Assembly: GCA_030837445.1 (NCBI GenBank) | Contig: JAUPKM010000075.1 | Span: 1-36,833, forward strand | Direction of reading: 5' to 3' | Origin: Actinomycetota bacterium | GTDB lineage: Bacteria; Actinomycetota; Actinomycetes; S36-B12; UBA10799 | DNA: 36,833 bases | Part shown: positions 13,447-27,852 of the stretch, piece by piece | Numbering within the stretch: position 1 is the stretch's first letter | How the letters are laid out: every line of letters starts with the position of its first letter | Position numbers and translations under genes: made by a program | The notes under the pieces: generated by a model | The model's input: only the letters and a program-made list of their open reading frames with translations | Told to the model about the DNA's origin: nothing | The model's database searches: none

Positions 13447-16400
13447 GTGAGCAGGAGCGAGCATGGCGCGGACCGCGACACTGATGACATCAGGAGCATG
13501 GCGGCCACCGACGACAGCGGCCAGCACGGGGCCTCGCACACCGTCGGTTCAGCTCTGACTGAGCAGGAGAGAGAGACGCTTCGCCGTGCAAAGATTTGCC
13601 GTGCCGCGGCTGGGTGCCTCACCCAGTCCGACCTGGTCAGCGAGTTGCCGCGGCTAAGCGGCAGCGACGTTCGGTGGGTGCGGCGGCGGACCCAGATCCG
13701 TCCGAACGCTCCGACTGCGGCGCTGGCTCGCGCGGTGCGCACCATATTGGTCCGCTCGGACGAGAAGCGGACCGCGTCGATCCTGCACGACTGCCTGCAC
13801 TACGGCGTGTTGTCTACCAATGTCGCCTCGCAACTGCCGATCCCCGAAATGGCCGCGCTGCTGGCCGGTGACATCGACGGCATGATCAGCCTCGGTGACC
13901 AGCCGATCTACCAGACGCTGCTTGACGCGGAGGAGTTCGGCACCACGCGGACCGCGCGGGTCTCGGCGTGGGCGTCGATGATCTGCATAGGCCATTCCGC
14001 CGACATCATGGCACTGGCCTGGCTGGTCGCCGACCTGCCGGAGGAGTGGCCAGATGCGCAGCGGCAGGCGCTGGTCAATGTGTGGGAGAGTGTCCGGTTC
14101 CGGACGCCGGACCTGCCAGAGAAGCCGATGCGTTTCGAGGACCTCGTCGACGTGGTCATCGACGCTGACGCCGAGATGCACAGCGACAAGTTCGAGGACG
14201 TCGACGAGCCCGCCATCCTCGAAAGGCCCGCCACAGCACACGCGAGCGTGACGGAGCCGTGCGGCGATGTCTCATGCCCCGCCACGGCTGACGCGCTGGC
14301 TGCGGGAGGTGGCGCCGCATCCGAGCTGGCCGAGCTCGACATGCCGTCGCTGCAGCGCGTGCTCGATGACTTAGAGCAGCTCCGCTGCCACTTGGAGGAC
14401 GAGGCGGCGCCCGCCCTCGCCGAAGCCGTCGCTGCGGGGCGTCCCCCGGCGGAGGCACATGTCGTCGCGGTCACCGTCTACACCCGACAGCTCACCTCGG
14501 TGTTCAACGCGCTTGCGAGGCTCACGGGGACTGCACGGCCGGAGACGCTTGCCGACGCACGGCACGCGGTCGAGGATGCGCTGGCTGCCACCATGGAGGC
14601 GGACCAGACGGCCGCCCGGCTGGACCGGGTCCGGCAAGTGGCGACGCTGCACGGGCCGGAGTACGTCGCAGCGGCCGTAGCCCGAGTCGCGGCCCTCGCC
14701 GCCGGCGTTGACGACACGACCTCGCCGGAGACACTGACCGGGCTGGAGGCGCTGTGCGACATCATCGACCTCGCTGGCGGTGACCCGCGCCGGGCCGTCG
14801 AACTCGGCGAGGTCGTCACCCGGAATCTGCCGGCCGCGATCCCGCTTCTCATGTTTGCGACCACCGCCGACGCCGTCACCTACACCGCAACACCCGCAGG
14901 CGCCGACTTCCCCGGCGAACCCGCCGCTGCCGGGCTCATCGCCACCCAGCTGGCGGCAGTGCCCGGTGAGGTCCAGGCGACCGCGAAAGCGCACGCCGCC
15001 GCGGCTGAGCCTGTCGATGCAGAATCCGTCGCCGAACCGGCCGGGGTAATGACACCCGCGCTCTACACCGACGTGCCACTCGCCGTTACGGCCGAGGAAA
15101 CCACTTCTCCAACGCCTGGCCGTGCTGTCGACGAGACCACTCCGGATGATGCGGTCGCGGGGCTCGACACCGACGCGGAGCCGGACCTCGAGAACGTCCT
15201 CGCCGGGCTCGACCTCACCGTTCCGCTCCCCGCCGCCCGGCAGCCCAGCCACGCAGCCCCCGAGAAGACCACCGAGCCCAGGCCGTCCGCCGGTGATACA
15301 CCCGACGTCGACACGTCCGACGCCAGCCACGTGGACATGCTCTACACCGATCTGCTCGACCACGACCAGTACGCGCTTGCGTACTGGCTCACCACCGCCG
15401 AAAGCGCTCCGGCCGCAGTGAGCACGGCGTATCGACTCGCCGCGCACGCTGCCGCGATCAAGACTTCCACCGGCTCAAATGCGGCGGCATTCACCGCCGC
15501 CGTCACCAACCTCGACGCCGGCACCGTCCGGGACATGCCCGACACCCAGATGCTGATCTACGCCGCCGCCGTCCGCGCCGGGTTGCTGTCCCCGTCGGCC
15601 GGCGCGGCAGGGCCGTTGCGCGACATCGCGACCAGCATTCCCCGCTACGGCAAGGCGGTCGAGGAGCTTCACGACGCGCTGCTCACGGCGATCTACAGCG
15701 GCATCTACCTCACCCCGTGCAGCATCAACGCTGTGGCCGAAGCCGCGGAAGCCGACCAGGTCCTGCAAACCCTCACGGCCGTCGCCAAAGAGCTACTCGC
15801 CAGGCCCCGTACCATCCTCTATGCCCCGGCGACCGAACTCTGGCAGACCTGGATGGCGCCAGACGGCTACCTCGGCCGCCCGCTGAGCATCATCGCAGCC
15901 GGGCAAATGGCCCCGTACGCTGTCGCGCTCATCCGCGACCGCATCGCGAACCTCCGTTCCCGGTCTACGCTCGAAGCGACCATCGACCGCGACACGCCCC
16001 GCAGCACTGGCAAGCGCAGCAAGCGGATAGAGTCCCGAGCCCGAGAGAAGCTGCTCGCCTGGACCGGCGAGGTCACCGAGCTGCTGTCGAACTGGATCAC
16101 CGCCTTCGAGAATCTCACCGGCCCCAACGCCGATTCCTGGATGAACGACCCGATGACCGAGCTGCGCACGCGGGTCGTCGCCGTTCGCGACCAGGCCCTG
16201 ACCGAGCTCGCCCGCCGCAGTGAAACCGACGTCGAAGCGCGTCACGCCGCCCACAAAGCCGGACTGCGGCTCCTCACCGACGCCCTCGACCTGCTCGTCG
16301 GCACTGCCGCAGTCCCCGTCGGGCCCGAGGTGTCGGCCGATCGGGTCCTCGGCGGACCGCTCACCGGTGCCGCCAACCTGCCGCTCACCGGCGCTGGCGA

Positions 16401-19400
16401 ACCCGCCTGGCCGATTACCGTCGACGACGTCCTCGCCGCGGTCCGGACCGCCCAGGCTGGCTCGGCCGGGTGGCGTGCCGCATACGAACAGCGGGCCGCC
16501 CGCCACGACCATGTCGGCACGCAGCTGCTCATCGAGCACGTGCGCTCCACCGACGCACAGCTGGCCGCTGTGCTCACCGACGCCCGGGATCAGGCCATCG
16601 CCACCTCCACCGCCAAACTCGACACCGTAGTCACGGCCCTGGACACCCGGATCGACTCCGACCGGCTCTTCAGCCGCGTCACCGTTGAGGAATGGACCGA
16701 CCTGTCCACTCGGGTCCGCGCCCACCAGGCTGGCCCGCGAGGTACGCGCCGCGACTACGGCGCCATGTTCGCTGACCTCGCCGCCATCGAGGGTGACCGG
16801 GCCGCCGCCGTCGGGCGCCGCATCGCCGCAGCCCGCGCCGCCCTCGACACGACCGGCATGGCTTCGGATGACGCAGACCGGATCCAGCGCTGCCTCGACG
16901 ACGGCGACCTCATCACTGCCGCCGAGTACATCGAGACGCTCGCCACCGACAGGAAACTGCCTGGCCCTCGCGACACGGTCGACCACGTGCGCCGGTTCTT
17001 CCCCGCGTTCTGCGATGTGTTCGCATCCCGCTGGAGCGCCAGCAACAGCACCCACCCGCTGCTGCGCGACCTGCAGACGGCGCTGCCGGCTGGCCGCGTC
17101 CCCAGCGACCCGGCACTGGCCGGGCTGCTCGCCGACGCCGGCATCGACCTCGCGGACCTGACCCGCGGCAAGACCATCGCCGAACGGGTCGACCACTGGA
17201 ACAAGCTCGCGGTCAGCCGCACGTTCGACGCCCGCATCGGCAACGTCAAGGCCGTCCTTGAGCAGATCGGGTTCATCTTCGACAAGTCGACCAATCCCCC
17301 TGTCAAGCGCGGCCAGGGCGGCGGGCGCGGCTCGTGGCTAGACCTGCACGGCGTGCGCGCCACCGCCGGCAAAGCAATCATTCCGGCGTTCGGGACGGCG
17401 ATGAGCCCGTCCGGAGACACGCTGCGGCTGCTCGCGGTGTGGAAGAGCCCGACGCCAGCCGAGCTGGTGGAGATGCTGCGCAGCGAACCGACCGACCAGT
17501 CGATCGTCCTGCTGTACTTCGGCTCCCTCGACGCCGCCGCCCGCCGCGAACTGGCCCGCCAGTTCCGTAGCGGCCGCAAGCTGGCCCCGACCGCCATCAT
17601 CGACGACGCCGCGATGGCCTACCTGGCCTGCCAGCCGACCCCCGGCCGGGACGTGACAATGGCGGTCACGCTGCCGTTCACGTTCTCGTCCCCGTTCACC
17701 CCAGACGTACCAGGTGTCAACGTGCCGCAGGAGATGTTCTACGGCCGGGCCGAGGAACGGGACAAGGTCGTCGACATGATGGGCCCGTGCGTCGTGTACG
17801 GCGGTCGGCAGCTGGGCAAATCCGCGTTACTGAGGGCCGCCGAGCGCGAGTTCGACGACGGCAGCACCCGGCACGCGATCTACGAGTCGATCTTCCACAT
17901 CGGCAAGTCTGCCCCGGCCGAAGCGGTCTGGACGACGCTGTGGCCGCGGCTGGCGGACAAGGGCATCGTCCCGGATACTGCCCCGGCCAGCGACGTCGCG
18001 GTCACGCTCACCGGGCACGTCGCCGACTGGGTGACCGCCCGCCCGAGCCGGCAACTGCTGCTCCTGCTGGACGAGTCCGACTCGTTTCTCGACGCCGACG
18101 CGAACGCCGCCGGCGGGATGTTCACGCAGGTCGTGCAGTTCAAGTTGCTGATGGAACGGACCCACCGCGCGGTCAAGATCGTTTTCGCCGGTCTGCACCA
18201 AACCGCCCGCTTCGAACGGCTCGCCAACCACCCGCTCGCGCACTTCGGCGAGCCGGTCTGCGTCGGGCCCCTCGCGCCGCAGGCCGCGTACGAACTGCTC
18301 ATCCGGCCGCTAGACGCACTCGGGTTCCGCTTCGCAGACACCGACCAGGCCGCCCGGGTGTTGGCCCTGACGAACAACCAGCCAGCGCTGATCCAGCTGT
18401 TCGCTGCCAGACTGCTGCGCAACCTGCAGGGCGCCCCGATTCTCGACGACGCGCCGCCGCAGACCATCGCCGCCGACGACGTCGAGCAGGTGTGGGCCGA
18501 CCCGACGCTGCGGCGCCAGTTCCGCAAGCGATTCGACTGGACCCTCGACCTGGACCCGCACTACAAGGTGATCGCGTACAGCGTTGCGCAGAACGCGCAC
18601 GCTGCCGGCGTCGACGCCGCGATGACCCCCGGCGTGCTGCGCGCCGAGTGCGAGCAGTGGTGGCCCGCAGGCTTCGCCGCCGAGGACATCCGCGCCGGCG
18701 AGTTCCGTGCCCTGCTCGACGAGTCTGTCGACCTCGGGGTGCTGTCGGTGACCGAGCGCGGCTACCGGCTGCGGACCCCGAACGTCCTCGACCTGCTTGG
18801 CAACCGCGACGAGGTCGACGAGGTCCTCGAGCGGGCCGCGTCCTTCGAGGCACCGGAGTCGTTCGACGGATCACTGATGCGGCCGGTGTACGGCGCCGGC
18901 CCGACCCGGGCGCCGCTAACCGCGCAGCAGATCGCCGACTTGCTCGCCCCCCGCCGCCAGGTCCGCCTGCTGGTCGGGTCTAGCGCGCTCGACGTCGACC
19001 GGTGCCTGGCGGTGCTAGAGAAGGAGAACGGGAACGCCGCGACCGGGAATCGGAGAGCGGTACTGGTGCGGGCCACGCCTGGCGGGCTGGAGAACAAGTG
19101 CCGCAGCATGCCGCTGCACAGCGCCGGGCACCACGCCGTCGTCCTGGTCGACATGAAGGACGCCACCGCCGAGCAGGCGCTGCACGTGTGGCGGCGGGCG
19201 CGGGCGCTGATCGCGTCGCACACCGGCGGCACCCTCGGGATCGTGCAAGTGAGCGGCCCGGCGCAGGCGGCCGCATGGCCGGTCGCGGCGCGGGAGTCGG
19301 ACACTTCCTCCGGCCTGACCGAGCTGCGCCGCTACGACGACACCGACCTGCGGCTGTGGTTCGCGCAGGAGTCGCTGCCATTCCAGGACGCCGCGTCCCG

Positions 19401-19842
19401 TGCCGAACTGCTCGCTACGACCGGCGGCTGGCCGAAACTGCTGGACCGGCTGGCGCAGCACCTGACCGGCCTGGACAGCGGCACGGTCAGCGACCCGCTC
19501 GACGACATCCGGACCTGGCTCGGTAGCAACTCCCAGGACCTGGTCGCCGCAGCCGGCGTGATCGCCGACGGATCGCTGCAGCAGGCGTGGGAGTTCCTCG
19601 TGCGGCAGATGGCCGGTGAGGCGACAGATCTGGAGACGTTCGCCGAGTTCCTCCAGCTGCACGCCGACACCGGCGAGCCCGGAAGCGACCAGCTCACTGC
19701 CACCGGCCTCGCAGGTAACGGATACGGCGGCGCCGAGGACGTCGTCGAGGTCCTCCGCGCGCTGGGGGTGCTGCTTGGCGACAGCAAGGGCCAGTACCGG
19801 ACCGAGCCGGTGCTGGCCGCCGCGACCCGGAGGGACGAGTGA
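13447..19842 (+). CDS. Giant (2131-aa) protein with a STAND/Orc-Cdc6-type P-loop NTPase module in its C-terminal third
   Basis: Single 6396-nt ORF. FYGRAEERDKVVDMMGPCVVYGGRQLGKSALL contains Walker A (17800-17823). RQLLLLLDESDSFL contains Walker B (18055-18081). VCVGPLAPQAAYELLIRPL and LTNNQPALIQLFAARLL resemble the helical sensor motifs of STAND NTPases. About 1400 residues precede the NTPase with no motif I recognise. They include an acidic Ala/Thr/Pro-rich low-complexity stretch (about 14880-15370). Confidence 0.85.
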   Translation: MSRSEHGADRDTDDIRSMAATDDSGQHGASHTVGSALTEQERETLRRAKICRAAAGCLTQSDLVSELPRLSGSDVRWVRRRTQIRPNAPTAALARAVRTILVRSDEKRTASILHDCLHYGVLSTNVASQLPIPEMAALLAGDIDGMISLGDQPIYQTLLDAEEFGTTRTARVSAWASMICIGHSADIMALAWLVADLPEEWPDAQRQALVNVWESVRFRTPDLPEKPMRFEDLVDVVIDADAEMHSDKFEDVDEPAILERPATAHASVTEPCGDVSCPATADALAAGGGAASELAELDMPSLQRVLDDLEQLRCHLEDEAAPALAEAVAAGRPPAEAHVVAVTVYTRQLTSVFNALARLTGTARPETLADARHAVEDALAATMEADQTAARLDRVRQVATLHGPEYVAAAVARVAALAAGVDDTTSPETLTGLEALCDIIDLAGGDPRRAVELGEVVTRNLPAAIPLLMFATTADAVTYTATPAGADFPGEPAAAGLIATQLAAVPGEVQATAKAHAAAAEPVDAESVAEPAGVMTPALYTDVPLAVTAEETTSPTPGRAVDETTPDDAVAGLDTDAEPDLENVLAGLDLTVPLPAARQPSHAAPEKTTEPRPSAGDTPDVDTSDASHVDMLYTDLLDHDQYALAYWLTTAESAPAAVSTAYRLAAHAAAIKTSTGSNAAAFTAAVTNLDAGTVRDMPDTQMLIYAAAVRAGLLSPSAGAAGPLRDIATSIPRYGKAVEELHDALLTAIYSGIYLTPCSINAVAEAAEADQVLQTLTAVAKELLARPRTILYAPATELWQTWMAPDGYLGRPLSIIAAGQMAPYAVALIRDRIANLRSRSTLEATIDRDTPRSTGKRSKRIESRAREKLLAWTGEVTELLSNWITAFENLTGPNADSWMNDPMTELRTRVVAVRDQALTELARRSETDVEARHAAHKAGLRLLTDALDLLVGTAAVPVGPEVSADRVLGGPLTGAANLPLTGAGEPAWPITVDDVLAAVRTAQAGSAGWRAAYEQRAARHDHVGTQLLIEHVRSTDAQLAAVLTDARDQAIATSTAKLDTVVTALDTRIDSDRLFSRVTVEEWTDLSTRVRAHQAGPRGTRRDYGAMFADLAAIEGDRAAAVGRRIAAARAALDTTGMASDDADRIQRCLDDGDLITAAEYIETLATDRKLPGPRDTVDHVRRFFPAFCDVFASRWSASNSTHPLLRDLQTALPAGRVPSDPALAGLLADAGIDLADLTRGKTIAERVDHWNKLAVSRTFDARIGNVKAVLEQIGFIFDKSTNPPVKRGQGGGRGSWLDLHGVRATAGKAIIPAFGTAMSPSGDTLRLLAVWKSPTPAELVEMLRSEPTDQSIVLLYFGSLDAAARRELARQFRSGRKLAPTAIIDDAAMAYLACQPTPGRDVTMAVTLPFTFSSPFTPDVPGVNVPQEMFYGRAEERDKVVDMMGPCVVYGGRQLGKSALLRAAEREFDDGSTRHAIYESIFHIGKSAPAEAVWTTLWPRLADKGIVPDTAPASDVAVTLTGHVADWVTARPSRQLLLLLDESDSFLDADANAAGGMFTQVVQFKLLMERTHRAVKIVFAGLHQTARFERLANHPLAHFGEPVCVGPLAPQAAYELLIRPLDALGFRFADTDQAARVLALTNNQPALIQLFAARLLRNLQGAPILDDAPPQTIAADDVEQVWADPTLRRQFRKRFDWTLDLDPHYKVIAYSVAQNAHAAGVDAAMTPGVLRAECEQWWPAGFAAEDIRAGEFRALLDESVDLGVLSVTERGYRLRTPNVLDLLGNRDEVDEVLERAASFEAPESFDGSLMRPVYGAGPTRAPLTAQQIADLLAPRRQVRLLVGSSALDVDRCLAVLEKENGNAATGNRRAVLVRATPGGLENKCRSMPLHSAGHHAVVLVDMKDATAEQALHVWRRARALIASHTGGTLGIVQVSGPAQAAAWPVAARESDTSSGLTELRRYDDTDLRLWFAQESLPFQDAASRAELLATTGGWPKLLDRLAQHLTGLDSGTVSDPLDDIRTWLGSNSQDLVAAAGVIADGSLQQAWEFLVRQMAGEATDLETFAEFLQLHADTGEPGSDQLTATGLAGNGYGGAEDVVEVLRALGVLLGDSKGQYRTEPVLAAATRRDE

Positions 19843-22016
19843 GCCGCACCCTGCCGCAGCTCGTTGAGCAGCTCGTCCTCGACGCGGCCCGGCACGCGGT
19901 CCAGGCGCCAGCGCTGGCCGGGACCGACCCGGACCGATTCGCGCAGGCGAACCGGCGCGGCATGCTACAGCTGATCGCGCGCCACCGGCCGCTGCGCGAG
20001 GAGCTCGCCGCCCGGTACGTCGACGAGCAGGGGCTGCAGCAGCCGAGCCTGCGAGCCTTGTTCGCCGGTGACGCGGCCGTGGCCGAGGCGGCCGCGACCA
20101 CCCTCACGGACCCGGCTCGCGTGCGCCGTCTGGCCCGCGCCTGGGTGCGCCGCAACGTGCACACACCGACCGGTACCGCCACCATCGCTGCCGCGACGGC
20201 GGGGCCAACGGCGGTGGACGGGCGGCGGGACGCGCGGATCGCCCGGAGGATCGCCGACCTGCGGGAGGCCCGCGACGTCGCCCGTGCCCAGCGCAACATC
20301 GCGCAGGTCGAGGCACGCGACTTGGCCCAGCAGCTGGCCGCCACCCATGGGGACCTGGAGGAGGGTGGCACCGTCATCGAGGCGCTGCGCGCCGAGCTAA
20401 ACCTTGAGCGGGAGGCGGCCGCAGCCCGGTCTGCCGACCTGGTCCCCGCCGCCCGGGTCTTCGCCGCCGCGGCCGCCCCGTCCAGCATCGGCGACACCGA
20501 CGACCCACGTGCCCGTGAGCTCGCCGACGACGCCACCGCCGCCCCGTCCGACGCAAGGCTCGCTGCGGCTCTCGCCACCGCCGGGGTGGCACCGGCCGCG
20601 TTTCGGACGGTGCTGGCCATGTTGCTCGCTCCGCCGCCGGCCCCATCGCCCGCGGTGGCGACGCCGCGGGAGATCGCGTTGACCCCGCTCGGCGGCGGCA
20701 CCGACATCGGCGGGTCGGCGATGCTGGTCTCTGCCGGCGACGTGCGGATCCTCGTCGACGCCGGGATGCGGCCTAAGCGCCGCATCGACGACGCCGGTCC
20801 GCCGCACATCGACGTCGTCCGCCACGGCGGCCGGCTGGACGCGATCGTGATCACGCACGCGCACAACGACCATGCCGGGTACGTACCGGCGCTGACGGCC
20901 GAGTTCGGGAACGTTCCGGTGTTCTGCAGCGCCGAAACCGCGGCGTTGCTGCCGACGATGTGGCAGGACTCAGTCAAGGTGTTCGACCGGACCCGCAGCG
21001 ACTACGTCGAGGCAGACGAGCCGCCCGCCGAGCCGCCGTACACGCGAACGCAGGTGTTCGCGGCACAGAGGCGTCTCGAGCCGCTCGCGCTTGGCCGGCC
21101 CGTCGAGGTGGCCGACGGCGTCACCATCGAGCTGTTCACGGCGGGGCACATCCTCGGCGCCGCCGGCGTCGTCGTCACTGCCGGCGACGGCCGGGTCACC
21201 GTGACCGGCGACGTGTCCACCCTCGCGCAGCTGTCCGTGTCTGGTCTGATCGTGCCGGACGCGGCCCGCGGCTCGGATCTGCTCGTCATCGAGTCGACGT
21301 ACTGTGGCCGCCGCAGCACCAACAGGGACCTGGAGGTGGAGAAGTTCATCAACATGGTCGCCGACACCGTGTTCGGCGGAGGGCGGGTGCTGGTGCCGGC
21401 GTTCGCGCTCGGACGTGCTCAGGAGGTCGCGCTCACGCTGCGGGACCGGCTGCCGGACGTGCCAGTCCTCATCGACGGGCTGGCCCGGCATGTGTCGTGG
21501 ATCTACGAGCAGGAGACCGCAGGGGCCGATCGGCCGCTGCGGATCTTCGGTGGCGGGGTGCAGGAGGTCCGCGATGCCAATCGGCCATACCTGCTCAAGA
21601 GCTTTCGCAAGGGTGTGGTCGTGACGACCTCCGGGATGCTCGCCGCCGGGCCGGCGGTCCGGTGGGCGCGGGAGATCCTGCCGGACCCGGACTCGGCGCT
21701 GCTGGTCGCCGGCTATCAGGACGAGGACTCCCCCGGAGCGGAACTGCTCGAGCTGTCCAACGGCGGCCACGGCACCGGCCGGGGCAAGCCGCGGACGTTC
21801 CGCCTCGACGACCACGACGTCGCGGTGAACGCGCGGGTGGAACAGTTCGGTCTGTCGGCGCACGCCGACCGGCGCGGCCTGTCTGCGATCATCAACGAAG
21901 TCGCGCCGCACGAGGTGATGCTGGTGCACGGCATGGCACGCAAGCAGCGGGACTTCGCGGACAACCTGACCCGGCGCGGTTATTCCGTCGCGCCAACCCG
22001 GCACTGGCAGCGGTGA
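19839..22016 (+). CDS. Metallo-beta-lactamase fold, beta-CASP-type nuclease with a ~280-aa coiled-coil-like N-terminal extension
   Basis: GTG start overlaps the stop of the giant gene (GTGA, 19839-19842). MBL motifs: GGSAMLVSAGDVRILVDAG and ITHAHNDHAGYVP (HxHxDH at 20856-20873). Beta-CASP-like blocks: LLVIESTYCG, VLVPAFALGRAQE, GLSAHAD and VMLVHG. The N-terminal 280 aa are Ala/Arg/Glu-rich heptad-like sequence. Confidence 0.85.
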   Translation: MSRTLPQLVEQLVLDAARHAVQAPALAGTDPDRFAQANRRGMLQLIARHRPLREELAARYVDEQGLQQPSLRALFAGDAAVAEAAATTLTDPARVRRLARAWVRRNVHTPTGTATIAAATAGPTAVDGRRDARIARRIADLREARDVARAQRNIAQVEARDLAQQLAATHGDLEEGGTVIEALRAELNLEREAAAARSADLVPAARVFAAAAAPSSIGDTDDPRARELADDATAAPSDARLAAALATAGVAPAAFRTVLAMLLAPPPAPSPAVATPREIALTPLGGGTDIGGSAMLVSAGDVRILVDAGMRPKRRIDDAGPPHIDVVRHGGRLDAIVITHAHNDHAGYVPALTAEFGNVPVFCSAETAALLPTMWQDSVKVFDRTRSDYVEADEPPAEPPYTRTQVFAAQRRLEPLALGRPVEVADGVTIELFTAGHILGAAGVVVTAGDGRVTVTGDVSTLAQLSVSGLIVPDAARGSDLLVIESTYCGRRSTNRDLEVEKFINMVADTVFGGGRVLVPAFALGRAQEVALTLRDRLPDVPVLIDGLARHVSWIYEQETAGADRPLRIFGGGVQEVRDANRPYLLKSFRKGVVVTTSGMLAAGPAVRWAREILPDPDSALLVAGYQDEDSPGAELLELSNGGHGTGRGKPRTFRLDDHDVAVNARVEQFGLSAHADRRGLSAIINEVAPHEVMLVHGMARKQRDFADNLTRRGYSVAPTRHWQR

Positions 22017-22134
22017 GTTCCCCACCGCCGGACCTGCACTCCGGCCATCCCATCCCGACCCACGACCGCCGTTCGAGCCCTTCGGCGGGCGGTCGCGGCC
22101 CGGCGCCGCGCGCCGCGACCTACAGGAGCACACC

Positions 22135-25100
22135 TTGACGGTCTCATCCGCCCCAGCCCAAGGCGCCGCCGTCGCGCCGGCCCTGCCCGCCGCGACGGCG
22201 GCGCAGAGGTACGACGCGCTGCTGGGCAGCCTCGCCCGCCGCGTCGTCGACACCGCCGCCGGCACTCTCATCCCGGCCGGAACGCGGTTGCCTGACCCGC
22301 CCGCGCAACAGCGGCTATGGCTCGGCATGCTCGCCAGTGCCCCGAAGCTCATGGCCGAAGCCGCAAACGGCTACACATACGGCGAGCGGCTTGTTCCGCC
22401 TGCGCAGGGGTTCACGTTCCGGGTGCCGGCGCTGCCGGTCACGCTCGAGTTCACCGTGTCTGCGGCCGCGTATGTCGCCCTGCACCCCACCATGGGCGAG
22501 CAGAATGCGGCGGTGACCGCCGCCGCCGACCCGGGCACCGAGCCCGGCCCGGTCGGCCTCCGCCCGGGCATAGGCCGCGCAGCCCCGGATGCGGGCCGCG
22601 GGCATCCACTGGCCACGGTGTGGACGAAGGTCGCCATCGACCCAGTCACCATCACCGTGCCCCTCACCATCGACACCGTCCGGGCCGGAGAGGATGAGCT
22701 CGCCGCCGCGCTGCGGTCCGCGGTCCGGCCGCCAGCCGGCGCGGAACTGCACCGGCCGCGACGGCTGTCCCCGGCCCCCGCCGGCAACCTGCCCCGCCCG
22801 GACGACATGCTGAACGCGACCACGTGGGCCCGGTACTGCACGGCGAACCTCCTCGACGCCGCCGACGTCCTACCGCCAGAGTTCCGCGCCGCCGTCGAGT
22901 TTGACATCACTCCCGGTGACGGGTACGTCGAGATCCTCGCCACGGTCGTCAACCTCACCCCGGCACCGGACCAGCAGACCGTGGACGGCACACACGCGTA
23001 CCAGACGCCGTACCTGAATACGCATCTGTACGAGGTGCAGCTGATCTGTGCGCTCGATGCGCCGCTGGTGCCATACCAGCTCGAACAGGTCCAGCAGTCC
23101 TACCGGTATGAGCGGGCCGTCCCCGCGCTAGGGCACGCTTGCGCCGTCGACGTGACCCGCGCCGGCGGTCATACTCGGCTGGCGACCATGTACGCCGCCG
23201 AGCAAGCCACTGCTCGGGTGCACCCACGCCGGCATGTCGCGCTCCCAGACGGGACCGTGACCACCCTCGATACCTCGTTCCAGGCCCTGATCGCCGACCC
23301 GATCGCCGCAGTGACTGCGCTCGTCGACGCGCACCGCGCCTGGGTCGACACGGAATGGAGCGTCGCGGCTCTCGACGCCCGCGCCGGTGCCCGCGGCTGG
23401 GACGTCTCCGCCCGCGCGGACGCCGACGCCGACGCCGTCACCGCCCACGACGAGGTCGACTGGGTCGCTGCCGGGTTGGACCTGCTCCGGACCGACCCAC
23501 AGGTCCGGGACGCATTCGTACTCGCGAACCGGGCCGTCGCCGCAGCAGCGAACCGAAGCTACGACGCTTGGTTCCCGTTCCAGATCGCGTGGCTGGTCGG
23601 CTGCCTGCCCAGCATGGTCGACCCAGCCGGGCACCCGGACGTCGAGATCGTCTGGTTCGCCACCGGCGGCGGGAAGTCCGAGGCGTACCTCGGACTTATG
23701 CTCACCACCCTGTTCTATGCTCGGCTCACCGGCGTCACGGCTGGCGCGCAGGTGTGGGCCCGGTTCCCGCTGCGGCTGCTCGCGCTGCAGCAGACCGAAC
23801 GGTTCACCGCGATGGTGCTGCACGCCGAGCTGCTGCGCCGCGACCACCCGGACATCGCTGTCGGCGACCCATTCGGCGTCGGGTACTTCGTCGGCGGAAC
23901 CAACACGCCGAACCGACTGCAGGCGCCCGACCCGACCAACCCGTACTACCGCGGTCAGGACCCGCACTCCGCCGCGACCGCTGAAGCATGCCGGATCCTC
24001 GCCGACTGCCCGCTGTGCCGTCAGCCGCTCGAGGTCGGCTTCGACGAGCTGTCCTGGACGATGCAGCACCGCTGCCGCAACGCCAGCTGTCGGATGACGG
24101 GCGTGCTGCCGGTGTGGGGCATCGACGACGAGATCTATCGGCACGCCCCAGCCGTGTTGGTCGGCACTGTCGACAAGCTCGCCCAGCTCGGCCAGTCGAA
24201 GGAGTTCCAGGTCCTCCTTGGGCGTGCCCACTCCCGTTGCCCGCAACACGGCTACACCGGCCACCCGACCTGGTGCGCGGTGTTCGGGTGCAAGCAGAGC
24301 CGACAACCCATCGCGGCCGGGTTCGGGCACGTCCGCCTCGAGATCGCCGACGAGCTGCATCTGCTCGACGAGTCCCTCGGAGCGCTCGACGGCATGTACG
24401 AGACGCTGCTGCAGGCCATCAGTGAAGACCTCGGCAACCCGCCGATACAGATTGTTGGCGCGACCGCGACCATCGAGGGCTACAAGCATCAGGTGCAGCA
24501 CCTGTATCGCCGCGATGCGCGCCGGTTCCCTGTCAACGGCCCGGACGTCGGGGAGACGTTCTGGTCCACCACCACCGCCGACGAGCCGCTGCGCCGCTAC
24601 CTCGGCGTCCGACCCCGGTCGATTACCATGGTTACCGCGACCCGCGAGGTCGCACTCACCCACGGCGGCTGGCTCGCCGACCTGCTCACCGACCCGGCCG
24701 CCGTGCTCGACGAAGCAGGCCTGGACGCGGCGGACCCGGCGCTACGCGACGAAGCCCACGCCGCTGGCCGCGACCTGTACGAGGTATTCGTCGCGTACTG
24801 CCTGCGCAACGAGGACCTGACCAGCTTCACGCGCGACCCGGAGGTCCGGGCACTACTCGGAAGCCAGCTGAACTTGGCCGTCATCAACGGTGACGCGGAA
24901 CCGACCGCGGTCCGGCGCGCTGTTGCCCGGTTGACTAACCCGCCCGCCGCCGCCGAGGACCGGGTCACGATGATCGCCGCGACTAAGGCGATCGGGCATG
25001 GGTTCGACGTTGGGAGGCTCGGCGTCATGACCGTGATGGGCACCCCAACATCCGCGGCCGAGATCATCCAGGCCTCCGCCCGGGTCGGGCGCCGTTGGCC

Positions 25101-25599
25101 TGGCCTGGTCATCAACGTGATCAACCCGACCCGGGACCGAGACGCTTCTGTATTCCGGTACTACGCCGACTGGATTCGGTTCCTCGACCGGCTTGTGAAC
25201 AAGGTCCCGGTGAACCGGGAGTCGCTGCCGGTGCTGCGTCGGGTTCTGTCCGGCGGGCTGATGGCATGGCTTCTGCAGGTCCATGACCGGGACTGGCTCA
25301 CCGGCGCCCAGCGTCGCAAAACGCTCGCCGATTCGACTGCGTTCGCGGCCGCCGTGACGGCCGGGTTCGTCGACCGGGCCCTGCTCATCGACAACCTGTC
25401 CCGTGGGTTCGGGATCCACCCAGACAGCGTGTACCACCAGCTGCACCGGGACGCGATCGCGGCGTGGGTCGACGACCGACTCGCCGGGCTACCGATGCAG
25501 GCCGAGCCCGGCAAACGGCTGCCGGACCTACTCACCCCGCCGGTGCCGCGGTCCCTGCGCGACGTCGAGGAACCGATCACCATTTACGCCGATCTGTGA
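22135..25599 (+). CDS. DrmA-like superfamily-2 DEAH-box helicase
   Basis: TTG start 7 nt after AGGAG. Walker A FATGGGKSEAYLG (23659-23679). DEAH-type box ADELHLLDESLG (DELH at 24349-24360). Helicase C-terminal motifs TKAIGHGFDV and QASARVGRR. Cys-rich inserts lie between motifs I and II (CPLCRQP...CRNASC, CPQHG...CAVFGC). A ~500-aa N-terminal region is unassigned. Confidence 0.85.
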   Translation: MTVSSAPAQGAAVAPALPAATAAQRYDALLGSLARRVVDTAAGTLIPAGTRLPDPPAQQRLWLGMLASAPKLMAEAANGYTYGERLVPPAQGFTFRVPALPVTLEFTVSAAAYVALHPTMGEQNAAVTAAADPGTEPGPVGLRPGIGRAAPDAGRGHPLATVWTKVAIDPVTITVPLTIDTVRAGEDELAAALRSAVRPPAGAELHRPRRLSPAPAGNLPRPDDMLNATTWARYCTANLLDAADVLPPEFRAAVEFDITPGDGYVEILATVVNLTPAPDQQTVDGTHAYQTPYLNTHLYEVQLICALDAPLVPYQLEQVQQSYRYERAVPALGHACAVDVTRAGGHTRLATMYAAEQATARVHPRRHVALPDGTVTTLDTSFQALIADPIAAVTALVDAHRAWVDTEWSVAALDARAGARGWDVSARADADADAVTAHDEVDWVAAGLDLLRTDPQVRDAFVLANRAVAAAANRSYDAWFPFQIAWLVGCLPSMVDPAGHPDVEIVWFATGGGKSEAYLGLMLTTLFYARLTGVTAGAQVWARFPLRLLALQQTERFTAMVLHAELLRRDHPDIAVGDPFGVGYFVGGTNTPNRLQAPDPTNPYYRGQDPHSAATAEACRILADCPLCRQPLEVGFDELSWTMQHRCRNASCRMTGVLPVWGIDDEIYRHAPAVLVGTVDKLAQLGQSKEFQVLLGRAHSRCPQHGYTGHPTWCAVFGCKQSRQPIAAGFGHVRLEIADELHLLDESLGALDGMYETLLQAISEDLGNPPIQIVGATATIEGYKHQVQHLYRRDARRFPVNGPDVGETFWSTTTADEPLRRYLGVRPRSITMVTATREVALTHGGWLADLLTDPAAVLDEAGLDAADPALRDEAHAAGRDLYEVFVAYCLRNEDLTSFTRDPEVRALLGSQLNLAVINGDAEPTAVRRAVARLTNPPAAAEDRVTMIAATKAIGHGFDVGRLGVMTVMGTPTSAAEIIQASARVGRRWPGLVINVINPTRDRDASVFRYYADWIRFLDRLVNKVPVNRESLPVLRRVLSGGLMAWLLQVHDRDWLTGAQRRKTLADSTAFAAAVTAGFVDRALLIDNLSRGFGIHPDSVYHQLHRDAIAAWVDDRLAGLPMQAEPGKRLPDLLTPPVPRSLRDVEEPITIYADL

Positions 25600-25695
25600 C
25601 CCGCGCAGCCCGCCTTCCCCCGGTCCGCTGGCGCTCCCCCACCCAGCCCGACGCCCCCAACCTTGTGCCCGTCCTGCTCGAAGGAGACGCCTCCG

Positions 25696-27534
25696 ATGGC
25701 GCTCGAAACGCTCAACCGGACCAACATTCAGGCGCTATGGCGGTACATGCCCGGACAGCCGTACAACTTCGGCACGAAGGCAGCCGTCGTCGGCGAACCG
25801 CCGCGGCAAACCAGTCCGCTCGGCATCCCGGAGGGATGGGTGGAGGTGCAGCTTCGCCGTCTGATCCGCCCATTTGCCGAGGCCTCGTCGAACATACCGA
25901 ACAGCGGCCCAGAGCTCGACATCGTCGACCGGCGCCAGTATGAGCTGGTCCGTGCCGACGATCTACGCGCCGCCCGGTTCCCTAACACATACCTGTGCGC
26001 CGACTGTGGCGCGTTCCGGACTGCCCGCGCCAGCGACCGGGTTCCCGACTGCGCTACGCACGGGCCGATGGAGCAGTTCACGTTCGTCGAGATCCACGAG
26101 TGCGGACATCTCGGCCAGCTGCGGCCGCCGCAGTGCGCGAACAACTGCAGAGCAGCGATGCGGCTATTCAATACGAAGTCGTTCAACACCGGCCGCTGGT
26201 ACTGGTCCTGCTCGCGGTGCGGCACTCGCTCCGAACGGCCAATCGCCCAGTGGTGCGAATGCCGGCACGGAAAGGTAACCGTCACCCGGGTCCCGCAGAC
26301 CTCGGCGTACTACCCGCAGCAAATCACCGTGATCAACCCGCCGACCCGGGAGACGTACGCGGCGCTCACGCACGAGCACACCCACGCTGCAGCGCTCGCC
26401 CAGGCGCTCGGGATCCTGCCGCCCGGCCTGGACGGGCTGCGGACCGCGGCTGGCGGCGTGTCCAACGACGCGGTCGCCCAGTTCGAGGCGCTCGCCGCGA
26501 CGCTCGGCTGGAAGCCCGGCAACCCGCTACACGACGCTGGCCTGGCCGACGCTCAGGCCAAGGTTGGCAGCACTCCGGTGTGGCGAGACGACGTCGACGC
26601 GCTCGGGCTGGAGCCGGAGCGGCTGGACCTCCTCGGCGAGGAATGCCTGCAGCTATCGCTCGCCCGGTCGGCGAACGCGATGAGCGTCGAGGACCTGCTC
26701 GCCGAAGCCGGCGGCGGGCCGCTCGCGGCGGCGTACGGCACGTACCGGGCACTGTTCGACCGGTACGGGCTGGCGGATGTGACGCTGCTGCGACAACTGC
26801 CGGTCGCATTCCTTGTCGCTGGATACACCCGTGTCTCGCCGCGGGCGAGTACGGTGAACCGGCGCGGTGACACCGTCACTACCCGGTTCCGGTTCTTCCC
26901 AGGCACCCGCAACGGTAAGTTTCCCATGTACGGGGTGCGGACCGAGACCGAAGGACTGCTATTTCGGATCGATCCGCTGAAGATCGTGACCTGGCTGGTC
27001 GATTCCGGCATCGTCGACGACCCCGGGGCGACCGACTTCGCGGCCGCGCAACGCTGGTTGCTCACCGTGTGCGACCCGGTTACTGACCTGTTTACCGCGC
27101 CGGAGAACCGGATCAGCCGTGCGGTGCTCGGGCTGACGCACTCGTTCGCGCACCGTGCGATGAAGGCGCTCGCTGCTCGGTGCGGGCTGAACGTCGACTC
27201 TCTGGCCGAGTTCCTGTTCCCAGCCAATGGGGCTTTCCTCATCTACGCCAACACCCGTAGCGAGTTCATCCTCGGTGGGTTGGAGCACGTGTTCCGGTTC
27301 GACCTGTTCGACGCTCTGACCGAGTTGGCTGCGGAGTCGCGATGCGTGTTCGATCCGCCGTGCCGGCAAGCGTTCGGCGGGGCGTGCGCGGCGTGTCTGT
27401 ACGTGTCGGAGATGGCGTGCGCTCGGTTCAACACGGTCTTGGATCGAAACCTGCTGTTCGGGACGATGCCACCGGTCGGCGGTGCGGCGCTGGGCCCGGA
27501 AGCGGCCGCGTGGCGCGGTTTCTGGACACCCTGA
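25696..27534 (+). CDS. DrmB-like DUF1998 (MrfA-type Zn-binding) domain protein
   Basis: I prefer the ATG at 25696, 8 nt after AAGGAGA, over the GTG at 25663. The C-terminus CVFDPPCRQAFGGACAACLYVSEMACARFNTVLDRN (27343-27450) is the four-Cys DUF1998 signature as I recall it. The N-terminal third holds further zinc-ribbon-like pairs (CADCG...C..H, CSRCG...CEC). Confidence 0.8.
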   Translation: MALETLNRTNIQALWRYMPGQPYNFGTKAAVVGEPPRQTSPLGIPEGWVEVQLRRLIRPFAEASSNIPNSGPELDIVDRRQYELVRADDLRAARFPNTYLCADCGAFRTARASDRVPDCATHGPMEQFTFVEIHECGHLGQLRPPQCANNCRAAMRLFNTKSFNTGRWYWSCSRCGTRSERPIAQWCECRHGKVTVTRVPQTSAYYPQQITVINPPTRETYAALTHEHTHAAALAQALGILPPGLDGLRTAAGGVSNDAVAQFEALAATLGWKPGNPLHDAGLADAQAKVGSTPVWRDDVDALGLEPERLDLLGEECLQLSLARSANAMSVEDLLAEAGGGPLAAAYGTYRALFDRYGLADVTLLRQLPVAFLVAGYTRVSPRASTVNRRGDTVTTRFRFFPGTRNGKFPMYGVRTETEGLLFRIDPLKIVTWLVDSGIVDDPGATDFAAAQRWLLTVCDPVTDLFTAPENRISRAVLGLTHSFAHRAMKALAARCGLNVDSLAEFLFPANGAFLIYANTRSEFILGGLEHVFRFDLFDALTELAAESRCVFDPPCRQAFGGACAACLYVSEMACARFNTVLDRNLLFGTMPPVGGAALGPEAAAWRGFWTP

Positions 27535-27617
27535 CTCCTCCGCTGTCCGGGCTGCTCATACAGGCCGGTGACCCGGTTGCGGTCGCGCACGGGCTGGCCA
27601 CCTCCGCCGCGGCCAGC

Positions 27618-27684
27618 GCGTCATGAGTGTCAAGTACCGGGTTATATGGAGACCATCAAACCCGGTACTTGACACTCATGACGC
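27618..27684. repeat. Perfect 26-bp inverted repeat with a 15-nt spacer
   Basis: GCGTCATGAGTGTCAAGTACCGGGTT (27618-27643) is the exact reverse complement of 27659-27684. The spacer is ATATGGAGACCATCA. It lies 84 bp after the DUF1998 gene stop and 120 bp before the ISL3 end. There is no U-tract, and the arms are less GC-rich than the surroundings. Confidence 0.9.
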
Positions 27685-27852
27685 ACTGCGGGGGTCCGAC
27701 ATCCGCTGGATCCTGGTGTGGGGGAGAAATCGTGACAGTTCCGCCCACCCAGCGCATCCCGCACCGCGGGCAGACCATCCGACACGTGTCCGAGCCGTCG
27801 ACGAATTCGGTTCTGGCGCTGATCTTGTGGTGCGGTGGGACGAGGCTTGGGG

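What the first reader, a model, noticed from the sequence alone, without database searches (positions are those of the whole stretch)
19839..22016. Beta-CASP MBL nuclease with a coiled-coil N-terminal extension, sitting where DISARM has its PLD nuclease
Seen: the start codon overlaps the stop of the giant ATPase gene (GTGA). The catalytic half has HAHNDH (20856-20873), ESTY, PAFALGRAQE, SAHAD and LVHG blocks. The first ~280 aa are Arg/Ala/Glu-rich repeats such as RIADLREARDVARAQRNIAQVEARDLAQQLAATHGDLEE. Established: beta-CASP enzymes (RNase J, CPSF73, SNM1/Artemis) are nucleic-acid nucleases. Inference: this is the likely effector of the locus. The coiled-coil part may tether it to the ATPase. 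Whether the substrate is DNA or RNA is unknown.
Basis: partly seen in the sequence, partly recalled or inferred. Interest (0 to 1): 0.6.

Follow-up and report, generated by a model that had tools for sequence, protein, structure and literature searches.

The report
Tethered RNase-type nuclease of giant ATPase
This gene encodes an intact CPSF73-like beta-CASP nuclease whose conserved N-terminal helical head and coiled coil mark it as the partner of the giant ATPase encoded just upstream; the pair is an undescribed two-gene module of actinobacterial defence islands that here sits inside a methylase-less DISARM locus whose own PLD nuclease gene has been cut off.

Summary
ORF 19839-22016 (725 aa) starts in a GTGA overlap with the 2131-aa gene, and all beta-CASP motifs lie where stated. 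By sequence and fold the catalytic half is a CPSF73/aCPSF1/INTS11/TTHA0252/Cas14-type, RNA-class enzyme. The N-terminal 275 aa are not repeats: they form a compact alpha-domain (1-107), a neutral linker, a 73-residue coiled-coil-like helix and short helices, under purifying selection.

The nuclease does not occupy the PLD slot of DISARM. Orthologous loci keep a DrmC-like PLD after DrmB, and the window retains its first 38 codons (27510-27626), cut at a palindrome next to an ISL3 element.

The nuclease's constant partner is the giant ORC/STAND-class NTPase. It lies directly upstream in 24 loci, with an NTGA stop/start overlap in 23 of 24, mostly without any Drm genes and often in defence islands. 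In the window lineage this cassette sits between drmE and drmA of a class 2 DISARM backbone that lacks its methylase.

A sister nuclease subfamily with a different N-terminal head forms beta-CASP-DrmE-DrmA-DrmB operons with a convergent methyltransferase and no PLD. I found no published description of either arrangement. Function is inferred, not tested.

The parts
19839..22016 (+). beta-CASP nuclease gene (725 aa), the finding itself
   Evidence: ORF and translation. Pfam Lactamase_B, Beta-Casp and RMMBL above cut-off. About 190 homologues in Actinomycetota.
19839..19842 (+). GTGA: nuclease start codon overlapping the giant gene's TGA stop (translational coupling)
   Evidence: The same NTGA overlap occurs in 23 of 24 giant/beta-CASP loci.
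19839..20159 (+). N-terminal all-alpha head domain (aa 1-107), 'type A'
   Evidence: AF2 pLDDT >90. Its HMM hits nearly all giant-linked nucleases and none of the Drm-only ones. dN/dS 0.29 against the M. echinofusca orthologue. No Pfam family.
20163..20216 (+). disordered linker (aa 109-126)
   Evidence: pLDDT <50. dN/dS about 1.05. Variable in length in the alignment.
20217..20435 (+). 73-residue continuous helix (aa 127-199), probable coiled coil
   Evidence: AF2 secondary structure. Heptad register with 13/21 hydrophobic a/d positions. dN/dS 0.41 measured over aa 127-212.
20673..22013 (+). beta-CASP catalytic core (aa 279-725): D307, H340xH342xD344H345 (nt 20856-20873), H437, D458, E485, H675, H697
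   Evidence: All of these residues are invariant in 59 homologues. PDB profile hits CPSF73/aCPSF1/INTS11/TTHA0252/Cas14 at E 1e-64 to 1e-46. Foldseek top 50 are all the same clade. dN/dS 0.13.
13447..19842 (+). giant partner protein (2131 aa): ~1400 aa unassigned, then an ORC/STAND-class P-loop NTPase (Walker A GGRQLGKS, nt 17800-17823) with winged helix and helical C-terminus
   Evidence: No Pfam, PADLOC, NCBIfam or PDB sequence hit for the whole protein. Sub-threshold nSTAND1/AAA_16/AAA_22. AF2 plus Foldseek: PAB2304, ORC2, SSO1545, Avs3, CED-4, Dark, NRC2. Directly upstream of the nuclease in 24 loci.
10766..13126 (-). DrmE-like gene (786 aa), divergent from the operon
   Evidence: Pfam DrmE_C 1.1e-11 and NCBIfam DrmE_fam. 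Orthologues in L081 and L121.
22135..25599 (+). DrmA helicase (1154 aa)
   Evidence: PADLOC DrmA 4.5e-94. NCBIfam DrmAS 358 bits, below the cut-off of 950.
25663..27534 (+). DrmB (DUF1998-type, 623 aa)
   Evidence: PADLOC DrmB 5e-39.
27510..27626 (+). stub of a DrmC-like PLD gene: GTG, 38 codons, then TGA inside the palindrome arm
   Evidence: tblastn of the L081 279-aa DrmC-like protein matches residues 1-28 at 27510-27596, and window/L081 homology ends at 27620. Sequence read directly. The full-length protein is DrmC-like.
27618..27684 (.). 26-bp-armed palindrome at the truncation point, followed by an ISL3 element (transposase ORF 28137-29438)
   Evidence: Sequence. Pfam DDE_Tnp_ISL3. Coordinates of the palindrome and IS ends are taken from earlier notes e1-3375776 and e1-3375777.

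Best explanation
The gene encodes a catalytically competent, two-metal beta-CASP nuclease of the CPSF73/aCPSF1/TTHA0252/Cas14 (RNA-cleaving) clade. It is the effector half of a two-gene module whose other half is the giant ORC/STAND-class NTPase encoded immediately upstream.

The two are made together through the overlapping stop/start. The nuclease's N-terminal alpha-head and coiled coil, joined to each other by a flexible linker, dock it to the giant and probably dimerise it. The giant's ~1400-aa N-terminal region would sense an infection cue, and NTP-dependent assembly would then switch on the nuclease. The nuclease would cut RNA (most likely) or single-stranded DNA, stopping phage or mobile-element propagation.

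In this window the module lies as a cassette between drmE and drmA of a class 2 DISARM backbone that has no methyltransferase and whose DrmC PLD gene has been truncated. The whole block moves horizontally as one island.

Shown: the fold, intact active site, conserved pairing, coupling, selection on the extension, mobility, and the PLD truncation. Inferred: physical docking, the activating cue, the substrate, and the defence phenotype.
For: Catalytic identity:
- Pfam Lactamase_B, Beta-Casp and RMMBL are above cut-off.
- All seven beta-CASP motif positions (ten catalytic residues), including motif C His697, are invariant in 59 homologues.
- PDB profile hits are aCPSF1, INTS11, FttA, CPSF73, Cas14 and TTHA0252 at E 1e-64 to 1e-46, with RNase J at about 1e-13 and no SNM1/Artemis in the top 60.
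- Foldseek top 50 are all RNA-cleaving beta-CASPs, TM to target up to 0.86.

Partner:
- A giant homologue lies directly upstream on the same strand in 24 actinobacterial loci, with an NTGA overlap in 23 of 24.
- The N-extended nucleases are one clade with 100/100 support.
- The giant's C-terminal 840 aa fold as an ORC/Cdc6/ATPase_2/STAND-like NTPase.

Tether:
- The type A alpha-head HMM is found in giant-linked nucleases and not in Drm-only ones, which carry a different, mutually homologous head.
- dN/dS is 0.29 for the head, 0.41 for the helix and 1.05 for the linker.

Defence and mobility:
- The clade is present in only 6 of 400 other class genomes and in 0 of 26 sampled genomes of the window's own order.
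- Neighbours include a pPIWI_RE island, GmrSD, an N6-methylase, an SNF2 helicase, Shosta and Wadjet-like genes.
- The M. echinofusca orthologous block is bracketed by two integrases and is 78-87% identical in DNA over 10764-27620 only.
Against:
- No sequence or profile similarity links the N-extension to any part of the giant, so docking is inferred from covariation and coupling only.
- L015 and L020 are giant-linked but lack a recognisable type A head.
- The giant scores below threshold for every curated STAND/AAA family, and neither protein hits any PADLOC defence model.
- RNA specificity rests on homology (motif C His, RMMBL). Some CPSF/RNase J-type enzymes also cut ssDNA (my recollection, not checked here), and the adjacent DrmAB works on ssDNA (PMC9142583).
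- The repeated placement of the cassette inside DISARM backbones suggests the module may not be fully autonomous here.
Confidence: 0.6

Rival explanations
1. Integrated hybrid system. In this lineage the giant/beta-CASP cassette is not merely lodged in DISARM but works with it. DrmE-DrmAB load on or unwind invading nucleic acid and hand it to, or activate, the beta-CASP nuclease. The giant NTPase would then supply the self/non-self or infection check that the missing methyltransferase normally provides.
For: - The cassette sits between drmE and drmA in the window, M. echinofusca, Kutzneria and (inverted) Kribbella, and just upstream of drmE in Goekera. All of these lack a methyltransferase.
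- The nearest cassette-free relative of the same DrmA lineage (Streptomyces, 61%) is a canonical class 2 DISARM with C5-methylase and Vsr.
- Drm linkage appears at three separate places in the nuclease tree.
- A sister nuclease subfamily is start/stop-coupled to DrmE in beta-CASP-DrmE-DrmA-DrmB operons, showing that this nuclease clade can work with DrmEAB.
- DISARM's true nuclease is an open question (PMC9142583).
Against: - Most giant/beta-CASP pairs (about 19 of 24) have no Drm genes within 10 kb.
- In three genomes holding both a nuclease and a DrmA-like gene, the two are far apart.
- The window nuclease carries the giant-type head, not the Drm-type head.
- Defence systems often cluster without interacting.
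- Only five hybrid loci were seen, four of them closely related.
Confidence: 0.2
2. One reading: in this locus the beta-CASP enzyme replaces DrmC as the nuclease effector of a DISARM system, and the giant ATPase is an accessory.
For: - The window has DrmE, DrmA and DrmB but no intact PLD and no methylase.
- The nuclease slot after DrmB is exchangeable in this DrmA lineage: HNH_2 follows DrmB in Plantactinospora.
- Type D operons elsewhere do lack a PLD.
Against: - A 38-codon DrmC stub remains at 27510-27626, cut at a palindrome/IS junction.
- Orthologues in M. echinofusca, Kribbella and Goekera carry both a DrmC-like PLD and the beta-CASP.
- The gene lies upstream of drmA, not after drmB.
- Its universal coupled partner is the giant.
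Confidence: 0.07
3. Not a defence gene: a housekeeping or stress-related RNA-processing/decay or DNA-repair nuclease, like bacterial CPSF-like RNases or RNase J, with the giant as a scaffold.
For: The closest characterised relatives (TTHA0252, aCPSF1/FttA, CPSF73, INTS11) act on cellular RNA. Some neighbourhoods in Actinomadura are ordinary metabolic genes.
Against: - The clade occurs in only 1.5% of sampled class genomes and is absent from the window's own order.
- It is flanked by integrases and IS elements and was transferred between orders at 70-87% identity.
- It recurs in defence islands.
- It forms a separate long-branched clade from the ~430-aa stand-alone beta-CASPs.
Confidence: 0.05
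4. The MBL domain hydrolyses a small molecule, such as a cyclic-nucleotide signal as Apyc1-type MBL enzymes do, rather than nucleic acid, and so acts as a regulator.
For: Precomputed weak or faint Pfam Anti-Pycsar_Apyc1 hits are listed for family members.
Against: My own Pfam scan did not return that family at E <= 0.01. The Beta-Casp insertion and RMMBL domains, which define polynucleotide-cleaving members, pass their cut-offs. All structural neighbours are nucleases. No cyclase gene is present in the locus.
Confidence: 0.03

Closest known systems
CPSF73 / INTS11 / archaeal aCPSF1 (FttA) / Thermus TTHA0252 beta-CASP ribonucleases
   Same: Same fold and the complete two-metal active site with motif C histidine and an RMMBL domain. 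Profile E-values are 1e-64 to 1e-46 and Foldseek E about 1e-35 with TM to target up to 0.86.
   Different: No KH domains, unlike aCPSF1, and no CPSF/Integrator partners. It carries a unique 275-aa alpha-head plus coiled-coil extension, is encoded on mobile accessory islands, and is coupled to a giant NTPase. It scores far below the aCPSF1 equivalog cut-off (204 vs 580 bits).
Cas14, the beta-CASP nuclease of type VII CRISPR-Cas
   Same: A CPSF73-like beta-CASP enzyme recruited as a separately encoded immune effector and held on a sensing complex through a non-catalytic appendage. NCBIfam 2e-55; PDB 8yhd/9j9e hits.
   Different: 188 bits against a cut-off of 800. There are no cas7/cas5 genes among the scanned ORFs and no CRISPR array. 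The appendage is N-terminal and unrelated. The sensor here is a protein NTPase, not a crRNA complex.
Avs/AVAST-type STAND defence systems, especially Avs1 with its separate MBL-fold Avs1a, and MBL-fused STANDs
   Same: The logic is a large ORC/STAND-class NTPase sensor plus a metallo-beta-lactamase-fold hydrolase effector. The giant's NTPase module resembles Avs3, CED-4 and Apaf-1-type proteins in fold. MBL is a recognised STAND effector module (10.64898/2026.01.04.697583).
   Different: The giant hits no PADLOC Avs model and only sub-threshold nSTAND1. Avs1a similarity is marginal (E 0.006, MBL motif only). The effector here is a full beta-CASP nuclease with a coiled-coil tether on a separate, translationally coupled polypeptide. 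The giant's 1400-aa sensor region lies N-terminal to the NTPase and is unassigned.
Class 2 DISARM (DrmE, DrmA, DrmB, DrmC, DrmMII)
   Same: The window has DrmE-like, DrmA and DrmB genes and the stub of a DrmC-like PLD. A 61%-identical DrmA in Streptomyces sits in a canonical class 2 operon.
   Different: No methyltransferase, DrmC truncated, drmE inverted, and an 8.6-kb giant/beta-CASP cassette inserted between drmE and drmA. The beta-CASP is not a described DISARM component: it is absent from PADLOC DISARM models and from the YprA-helicase survey PMC12458937.

Membership tests
beta-CASP subfamily of the MBL superfamily | MBL motifs 1-4 (D; HxHxDH; H; D) | tested here: met
   D307, H340-x-H342-x-D344-H345, H437 and D458 are invariant in 59 sequences. 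Pfam Lactamase_B 54 bits.
beta-CASP subfamily of the MBL superfamily | beta-CASP insertion with motifs A (D/E), B (H), C (H or V) | tested here: met
   E485, H675 and H697 are invariant. Pfam Beta-Casp 36.3 bits against a cut-off of 27.7.
RNA-acting beta-CASP clade (CPSF73/aCPSF1/TTHA0252 type) | Motif C histidine and an RMMBL C-terminal domain, with closest relatives being RNA nucleases | tested here: met
   H697 in MLVHG. RMMBL 51.9 bits. PDB sequence and fold neighbours are all RNA-cleaving members.
RNA-acting beta-CASP clade (CPSF73/aCPSF1/TTHA0252 type) | Demonstrated cleavage of RNA rather than DNA | not testable with these tools
   Needs a biochemical assay on ssRNA, ssDNA and dsDNA.
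archaeal aCPSF1 (TIGR03675 equivalog) | Score above the curated cut-off, and N-terminal KH domains | tested here: not met
   204 bits against a cut-off of 580, with the match limited to the catalytic core 276-713. The N-terminus is an alpha-head plus coiled coil, not KH.
Cas14 of type VII CRISPR-Cas (NF045584) | Score above the cut-off, and association with cas7/cas5 and a CRISPR array | tested here: not met
   188 bits against a cut-off of 800. No cas genes among the ORFs scanned and no array-like repeats.
RNase J | TIGR00649 / RnjA model match over the full length | tested here: not met
   36 bits against a cut-off of 400, N-terminal MBL motif only. PDB RNase J E about 1e-13 against 1e-64 for the CPSF type.
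DISARM | DrmA helicase and DrmB (DUF1998) core pair | tested here: met
   PADLOC DrmA 4.5e-94 and DrmB 5e-39. NCBIfam scores are below the equivalog cut-offs.
DISARM | DrmC PLD nuclease after DrmB | tested here: not met
   Only a 38-codon stub remains at 27510-27626. It is intact in the orthologues L081, L122 and L015.
DISARM | Cognate DNA methyltransferase (DrmMI or DrmMII) | tested here: not met
   No methylase among the scanned window ORFs. tblastn with DrmMII (L115) and the type D methyltransferase finds nothing in the window, L081 or L015.
DISARM | The beta-CASP protein is a recognised DISARM component | tested here: not met
   No PADLOC hit for it. It is not mentioned among YprA/DISARM-associated nucleases.
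STAND / Avs sensor plus effector systems (for the module giant + nuclease) | Partner has a STAND-class NTPase with Walker A/B and a winged helix | tested here: inconclusive
   Walker A GGRQLGKS and Walker B LLLLLDESD are conserved. nSTAND1 is at 6e-4 but below the cut-off. The fold resembles PAB2304, ORC2, Avs3 and CED-4 at E 4e-7 to 2e-4. That is compatible with either the ORC/Cdc6-type AAA+ or the STAND class.
STAND / Avs sensor plus effector systems (for the module giant + nuclease) | Match to a described Avs family or to the Avs1a MBL effector | tested here: not met
   PADLOC gives no hit for the giant. Avs1a is at E 0.006 on the MBL motif only.

The most novel reading that the evidence does not exclude
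A single clade of coiled-coil-tethered, CPSF73-like beta-CASP nucleases is an exchangeable immune effector. It plugs, through swappable N-terminal heads, into two unrelated machines: a giant ORC/STAND-class NTPase (an undescribed two-gene defence system) and the DrmE-DrmAB helicase complex.

The second combination (methyltransferase + DrmE + DrmA + DrmB + beta-CASP, no PLD) would be a new DISARM class that names the long-sought DISARM nuclease and suggests it cuts RNA or unwound single strands.

The window type would be a third form, in which the giant sensor stands in for methylation-based self-recognition.
Probability: 0.3. Interest if true: 0.8.

Novelty: new variant of a known kind. Interest (0 to 1): 0.62.

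Why it matters
There are three reasons.

1. The giant NTPase + beta-CASP pair appears to be an undescribed defence-island module of Actinomycetota. It has an unusually clean signature: an NTGA coupling in 23 of 24 loci and a dedicated tether domain. It offers a second example, after type VII CRISPR Cas14, of an RNA-processing-type beta-CASP enzyme recruited into immunity.

2. The sister operons (beta-CASP-DrmE-DrmA-DrmB plus methyltransferase, no PLD) bear directly on an acknowledged gap. DrmC is dispensable and does not bind DrmAB, and which nuclease DISARM uses 'has remained a mystery' (PMC9142583). An operon-encoded nuclease that is start/stop-coupled to DrmE makes that question testable.

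3. The window shows how defence loci are rebuilt in nature: a cassette is inserted inside another system, the methylase is lost, and the PLD is clipped by a mobile element. This warns against reading the present gene order as design.

Tried and rejected
- Homotypic adaptor idea (the nuclease's N-extension shares a domain with the giant, as Death/EAD domains do): BLASTP and hhalign of both N-terminal segments against the giant family profile found nothing, with probability below 1%.
- DrmE and the giant as homologous alternative partners: hhalign found nothing.
- Type A and type B heads as divergent versions of one domain: no signal. Only the coiled-coil stretches match weakly (37% probability), which may be compositional.
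- Naming the giant by sequence: there is no Pfam, NCBIfam, PADLOC or PDB sequence hit for the whole protein or for its family profile.
- Naming the N-extension: no Pfam hit at E <= 10.
- Promoter/terminator scan of 12900-28000: no sigma-70-like sites, and terminator-like sites fewer than in shuffles. This is uninformative for a 70% GC actinobacterial locus.
- CRISPR array: none.
- Apyc1-like small-molecule hydrolase: rejected on domain content.
- Literature: five full-text searches and five papers read found no description of either arrangement. Absence from this library is not proof of absence.

Full report
**1. The observation**

ORF 19839-22016 (+) is open and encodes 725 aa. Its GTG start overlaps the TGA stop of the 2131-aa ORF 13447-19842. 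Codon-position GC (GC3 0.90) marks it as a true gene in this ~70% GC window. HAHNDH is residues 340-345 (nt 20856-20873), and ESTY, PAFALGRAQE, SAHAD and LVHG are present as described.

**2. What the enzyme is**

NCBIfam places the core nearest archaeal aCPSF1 (4e-60) and type VII Cas14 (2e-55), both far below the equivalog cut-offs. RNase J is only marginal.

A profile of the family against PDB sequences hits PH1404/aCPSF1, INTS11, FttA, CPSF73, Cas14 and TTHA0252 at E 1e-64 to 1e-46. RNase J appears at about 1e-13, and no SNM1/Artemis entry is in the top 60.

An AF2 model (59-sequence alignment, mean pLDDT 87.7) finds the same set by Foldseek. All top 50 hits are RNA-cleaving beta-CASPs, with E down to 4e-35 and TM to target up to 0.86.

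D307, H340, H342, D344, H345, H437, D458, E485, H675 and H697 are invariant in 59 homologues. It is therefore an intact two-metal nuclease of the RNA-type clade (motif C = His). The substrate remains an inference from homology.

**3. The N-terminal extension**

It is not made of repeats. The model gives these elements:
- a compact all-alpha head, residues 1-107, pLDDT above 90;
- a disordered linker, 109-126;
- one uninterrupted helix, 127-199;
- short helices up to 263.

One heptad register of the long helix carries 13/21 hydrophobic a/d residues, 9 of them strong, against 0-5 strong in the other registers.

Against the 86%-identical Micromonospora echinofusca orthologue, dN/dS by region is:

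| Region | dN/dS |
|---|---|
| alpha-head | 0.29 |
| helix region (aa 127-212) | 0.41 |
| 213-275 | 0.27 |
| linker | 1.05 |
| catalytic core | 0.13 |

So the head and the helix are functional parts, and the stretch between them is a flexible linker. No Pfam family matches the extension.

**4. The real partner**

About 190 homologues exist, essentially all in Actinomycetota. In 80 loci fetched from one-genome-per-species contigs, the N-extended nucleases form one clade with 100/100 support, apart from the ~430-aa stand-alone beta-CASPs of other phyla.

In 24 loci a homologue of the giant protein lies directly upstream on the same strand. In 23 of those 24 the nuclease start codon overlaps the giant's TGA stop as NTGA.

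The giant has no family or PDB sequence match as a whole. Its conserved core (FYGR...GGRQLGKS, LLLLDE.D) gives sub-threshold nSTAND1/AAA_16/AAA_22 hits. An AF2 model of its last 840 aa (pLDDT 78) resembles PAB2304 (TM 0.68), ORC2, SSO1545, Avs3, ORC/Cdc6, CED-4, Dark and a plant NLR. That makes it an ORC/STAND-class NTPase with a winged helix.

Flanks of these pairs vary and often hold defence genes: a pPIWI_RE three-gene island, GmrSD, an N6-methylase, an SNF2 helicase and a PD-(D/E)xK nuclease. The nuclease clade occurs in only 6 of 400 other genomes of the class and in none of 26 sampled genomes from the window's own order.

This is the behaviour of an accessory, horizontally moving two-gene module: sensor NTPase plus nuclease effector.

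**5. The DISARM connection, and why the PLD-slot reading fails**

The neighbours are DrmA (PADLOC 4.5e-94), DrmB (5e-39) and a divergent DrmE-like gene (Pfam DrmE_C 1e-11).

The M. echinofusca orthologous block is 78-87% identical in DNA over window 10764-27620 only. It reads: integrase | DrmE-like (minus strand) | giant | beta-CASP | DrmA | DrmB | a 279-aa gene | integrase.

That 279-aa protein carries HFKVVIAYGHAAYLGSAN. It aligns with the canonical DrmC of a class 2 DISARM locus across the HKD motif (E 4e-7) and matches PADLOC DrmC models (1.7e-6). The Goekera counterpart scores 1.4e-9, and the Kribbella one has a PLDc_2 hit.

In the window the same gene starts at GTG 27510, runs 38 codons and ends at TGA 27624-27626, inside the left arm of the 26-bp-armed palindrome. 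Homology to the orthologue stops at 27620, and an ISL3 element follows.

So the PLD had its usual place after DrmB and was clipped. The beta-CASP is an addition, not a substitute, and it lies upstream of drmA.

**6. Three architectures**

*Type G: giant + nuclease alone.* This is the majority.

*Hybrid: a class 2 DISARM backbone without a methyltransferase that carries the cassette.*
- The cassette lies between drmE and drmA in the window, M. echinofusca, Kutzneria (DrmA 74%) and Kribbella (70%, cassette inverted).
- It lies just upstream of drmE in Goekera.
- The same DrmA lineage at 61% identity (Streptomyces NRRL S-118) is a canonical class 2 DISARM with PLD, C5-methylase and Vsr, and no cassette.
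- At 54% (Plantactinospora) an HNH_2 gene follows DrmB.
- At 33% (L115) the locus is again canonical.

*Type D: a sister nuclease subfamily of 835-886 aa.*
- Its N-terminal heads are homologous to each other (L116, L026, L027) and unrelated to the window's head.
- It forms beta-CASP, DrmE-like, DrmA, DrmB operons, several with a beta-CASP stop/DrmE start overlap.
- These have a convergent ~500-aa amino-methyltransferase (DPMVGSGTS ... SPPY), with no PLD and no giant.
- Examples are Actinoplanes philippinensis, Mycolicibacterium litorale, a Nocardiaceae MAG and three metagenome contigs.

The head type thus follows the partner, which is the best available support for a docking role. Drm linkage appears at three separate places in the nuclease tree.

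**7. Mechanism proposed**

Shown: an intact RNA-type beta-CASP active site, obligate and translationally coupled pairing with an ORC/STAND-class giant, a selected head plus coiled coil joined by a neutral linker, and mobile, sporadic, defence-island distribution.

Inferred: the giant senses an infection cue through its unassigned ~1400-aa N-terminal part. NTP-driven assembly then activates the nuclease, which is tethered and probably dimerised by its extension. The nuclease cuts RNA, or possibly single-stranded DNA.

It is open whether, in the hybrid loci, it also cooperates with DrmE-DrmAB. The recurrence of the cassette inside methylase-less DISARM backbones, and the existence of type D, make cooperation plausible. 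The many Drm-free pairs show that the module does not need DISARM.

**8. Comparison with the known, and novelty**

The nearest precedents for the logic are Avs-type STAND systems with MBL effectors (Avs1a; MBL fusions in 10.64898/2026.01.04.697583) and Cas14 of type VII CRISPR. Membership in any of these families was tested and not met.

The YprA-helicase survey lists PLD, PD-(D/E)xK, Vsr, RNase H-like and EEP nucleases with DISARM-like systems, but no beta-CASP or MBL. The DISARM structure paper calls the recruited nuclease a mystery. I found no description of type G, type D or the hybrid.

I rate it a new variant of known kinds.

**9. Limits**

- Everything functional is inferred.
- No multimer prediction and no read data were available.
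- The hybrid class rests on five loci.
- The window's assembly is fragmented (677 contigs, 84% complete, 6.7% contamination). The host assignment of this contig is therefore uncertain, although the truncation junction itself is read directly from the contig.

Noticed in passing
window 27510-27684: The DrmC-like PLD gene is cut after 38 codons exactly where a 26-bp-armed palindrome begins, and an ISL3 element follows about 120 bp later. The palindrome may be the scar or end of the element that removed the rest of drmC.
   Followed up: partly
L116, L118, L119, L120, L027, L026: A coherent DISARM-like operon type in which a beta-CASP (835-886 aa) is followed by DrmE-like, DrmA and DrmB genes. The first five loci also have a convergent SPPY-type amino-methyltransferase. 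None has a PLD or a C5-methylase. In M. litorale the methyltransferase is split into two ORFs.
   Followed up: partly
L124:15633-16613 (Plantactinospora): An HNH_2 nuclease gene occupies the position after DrmB where DrmC normally sits. This is another nuclease swap in the same DrmA lineage.
   Followed up: no
L113 and L114 (G220, G383): A different DrmA/DrmB variant: a 513-605-aa protein with sigma-70 regions 2-4 is encoded just upstream and overlaps drmA. An SNF2 helicase follows drmB. C5-methylase-like and Vsr-like sequences lie on the opposite strand.
   Followed up: no
L121:15590-23447 (Kutzneria): A Wadjet/JetABCD-like cluster (DUF3323/DUF2399, SbcC-like, DUF2398, DUF2397) lies immediately after the hybrid locus, which there, as in the window, has no DrmC.
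   Followed up: no
L081:17748-18587: The DrmC-like PLD of the M. echinofusca orthologue has Tyr in place of the Asp of the HxK(x)4D motif (HFKVVIAY). Whether it is active is unknown.
   Followed up: no
window 31943-33042 and 35410-35919: An AbiEii nucleotidyltransferase toxin gene (Pfam 4.5e-16) with an upstream overlapping small ORF, and a PIN_3-domain gene. The surroundings form a defence and toxin-antitoxin island.
   Followed up: no
window 30153-31798 (-): An M4 (thermolysin-like) peptidase is split into two adjacent ORFs, with propeptide and catalytic parts separated.
   Followed up: no
L005, L009 (also L007, L012, L018, L025): Giant/beta-CASP pairs sit next to a pPIWI_RE three-gene island (domains Z, Y plus REase), GmrSD, a 759-aa N6-methylase, an SNF2 helicase and a Ser/Thr kinase, i.e. 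in dense defence islands.
   Followed up: partly
G000 (whole assembly): The window's assembly is 4.5 Mb in 677 contigs (84% complete, 6.7% contamination), while genomes of its genus are 2.7-3.0 Mb. The island's closest relative is in Micromonospora (86% protein identity). So the contig is either a recent transfer or mis-binned.
   Followed up: no
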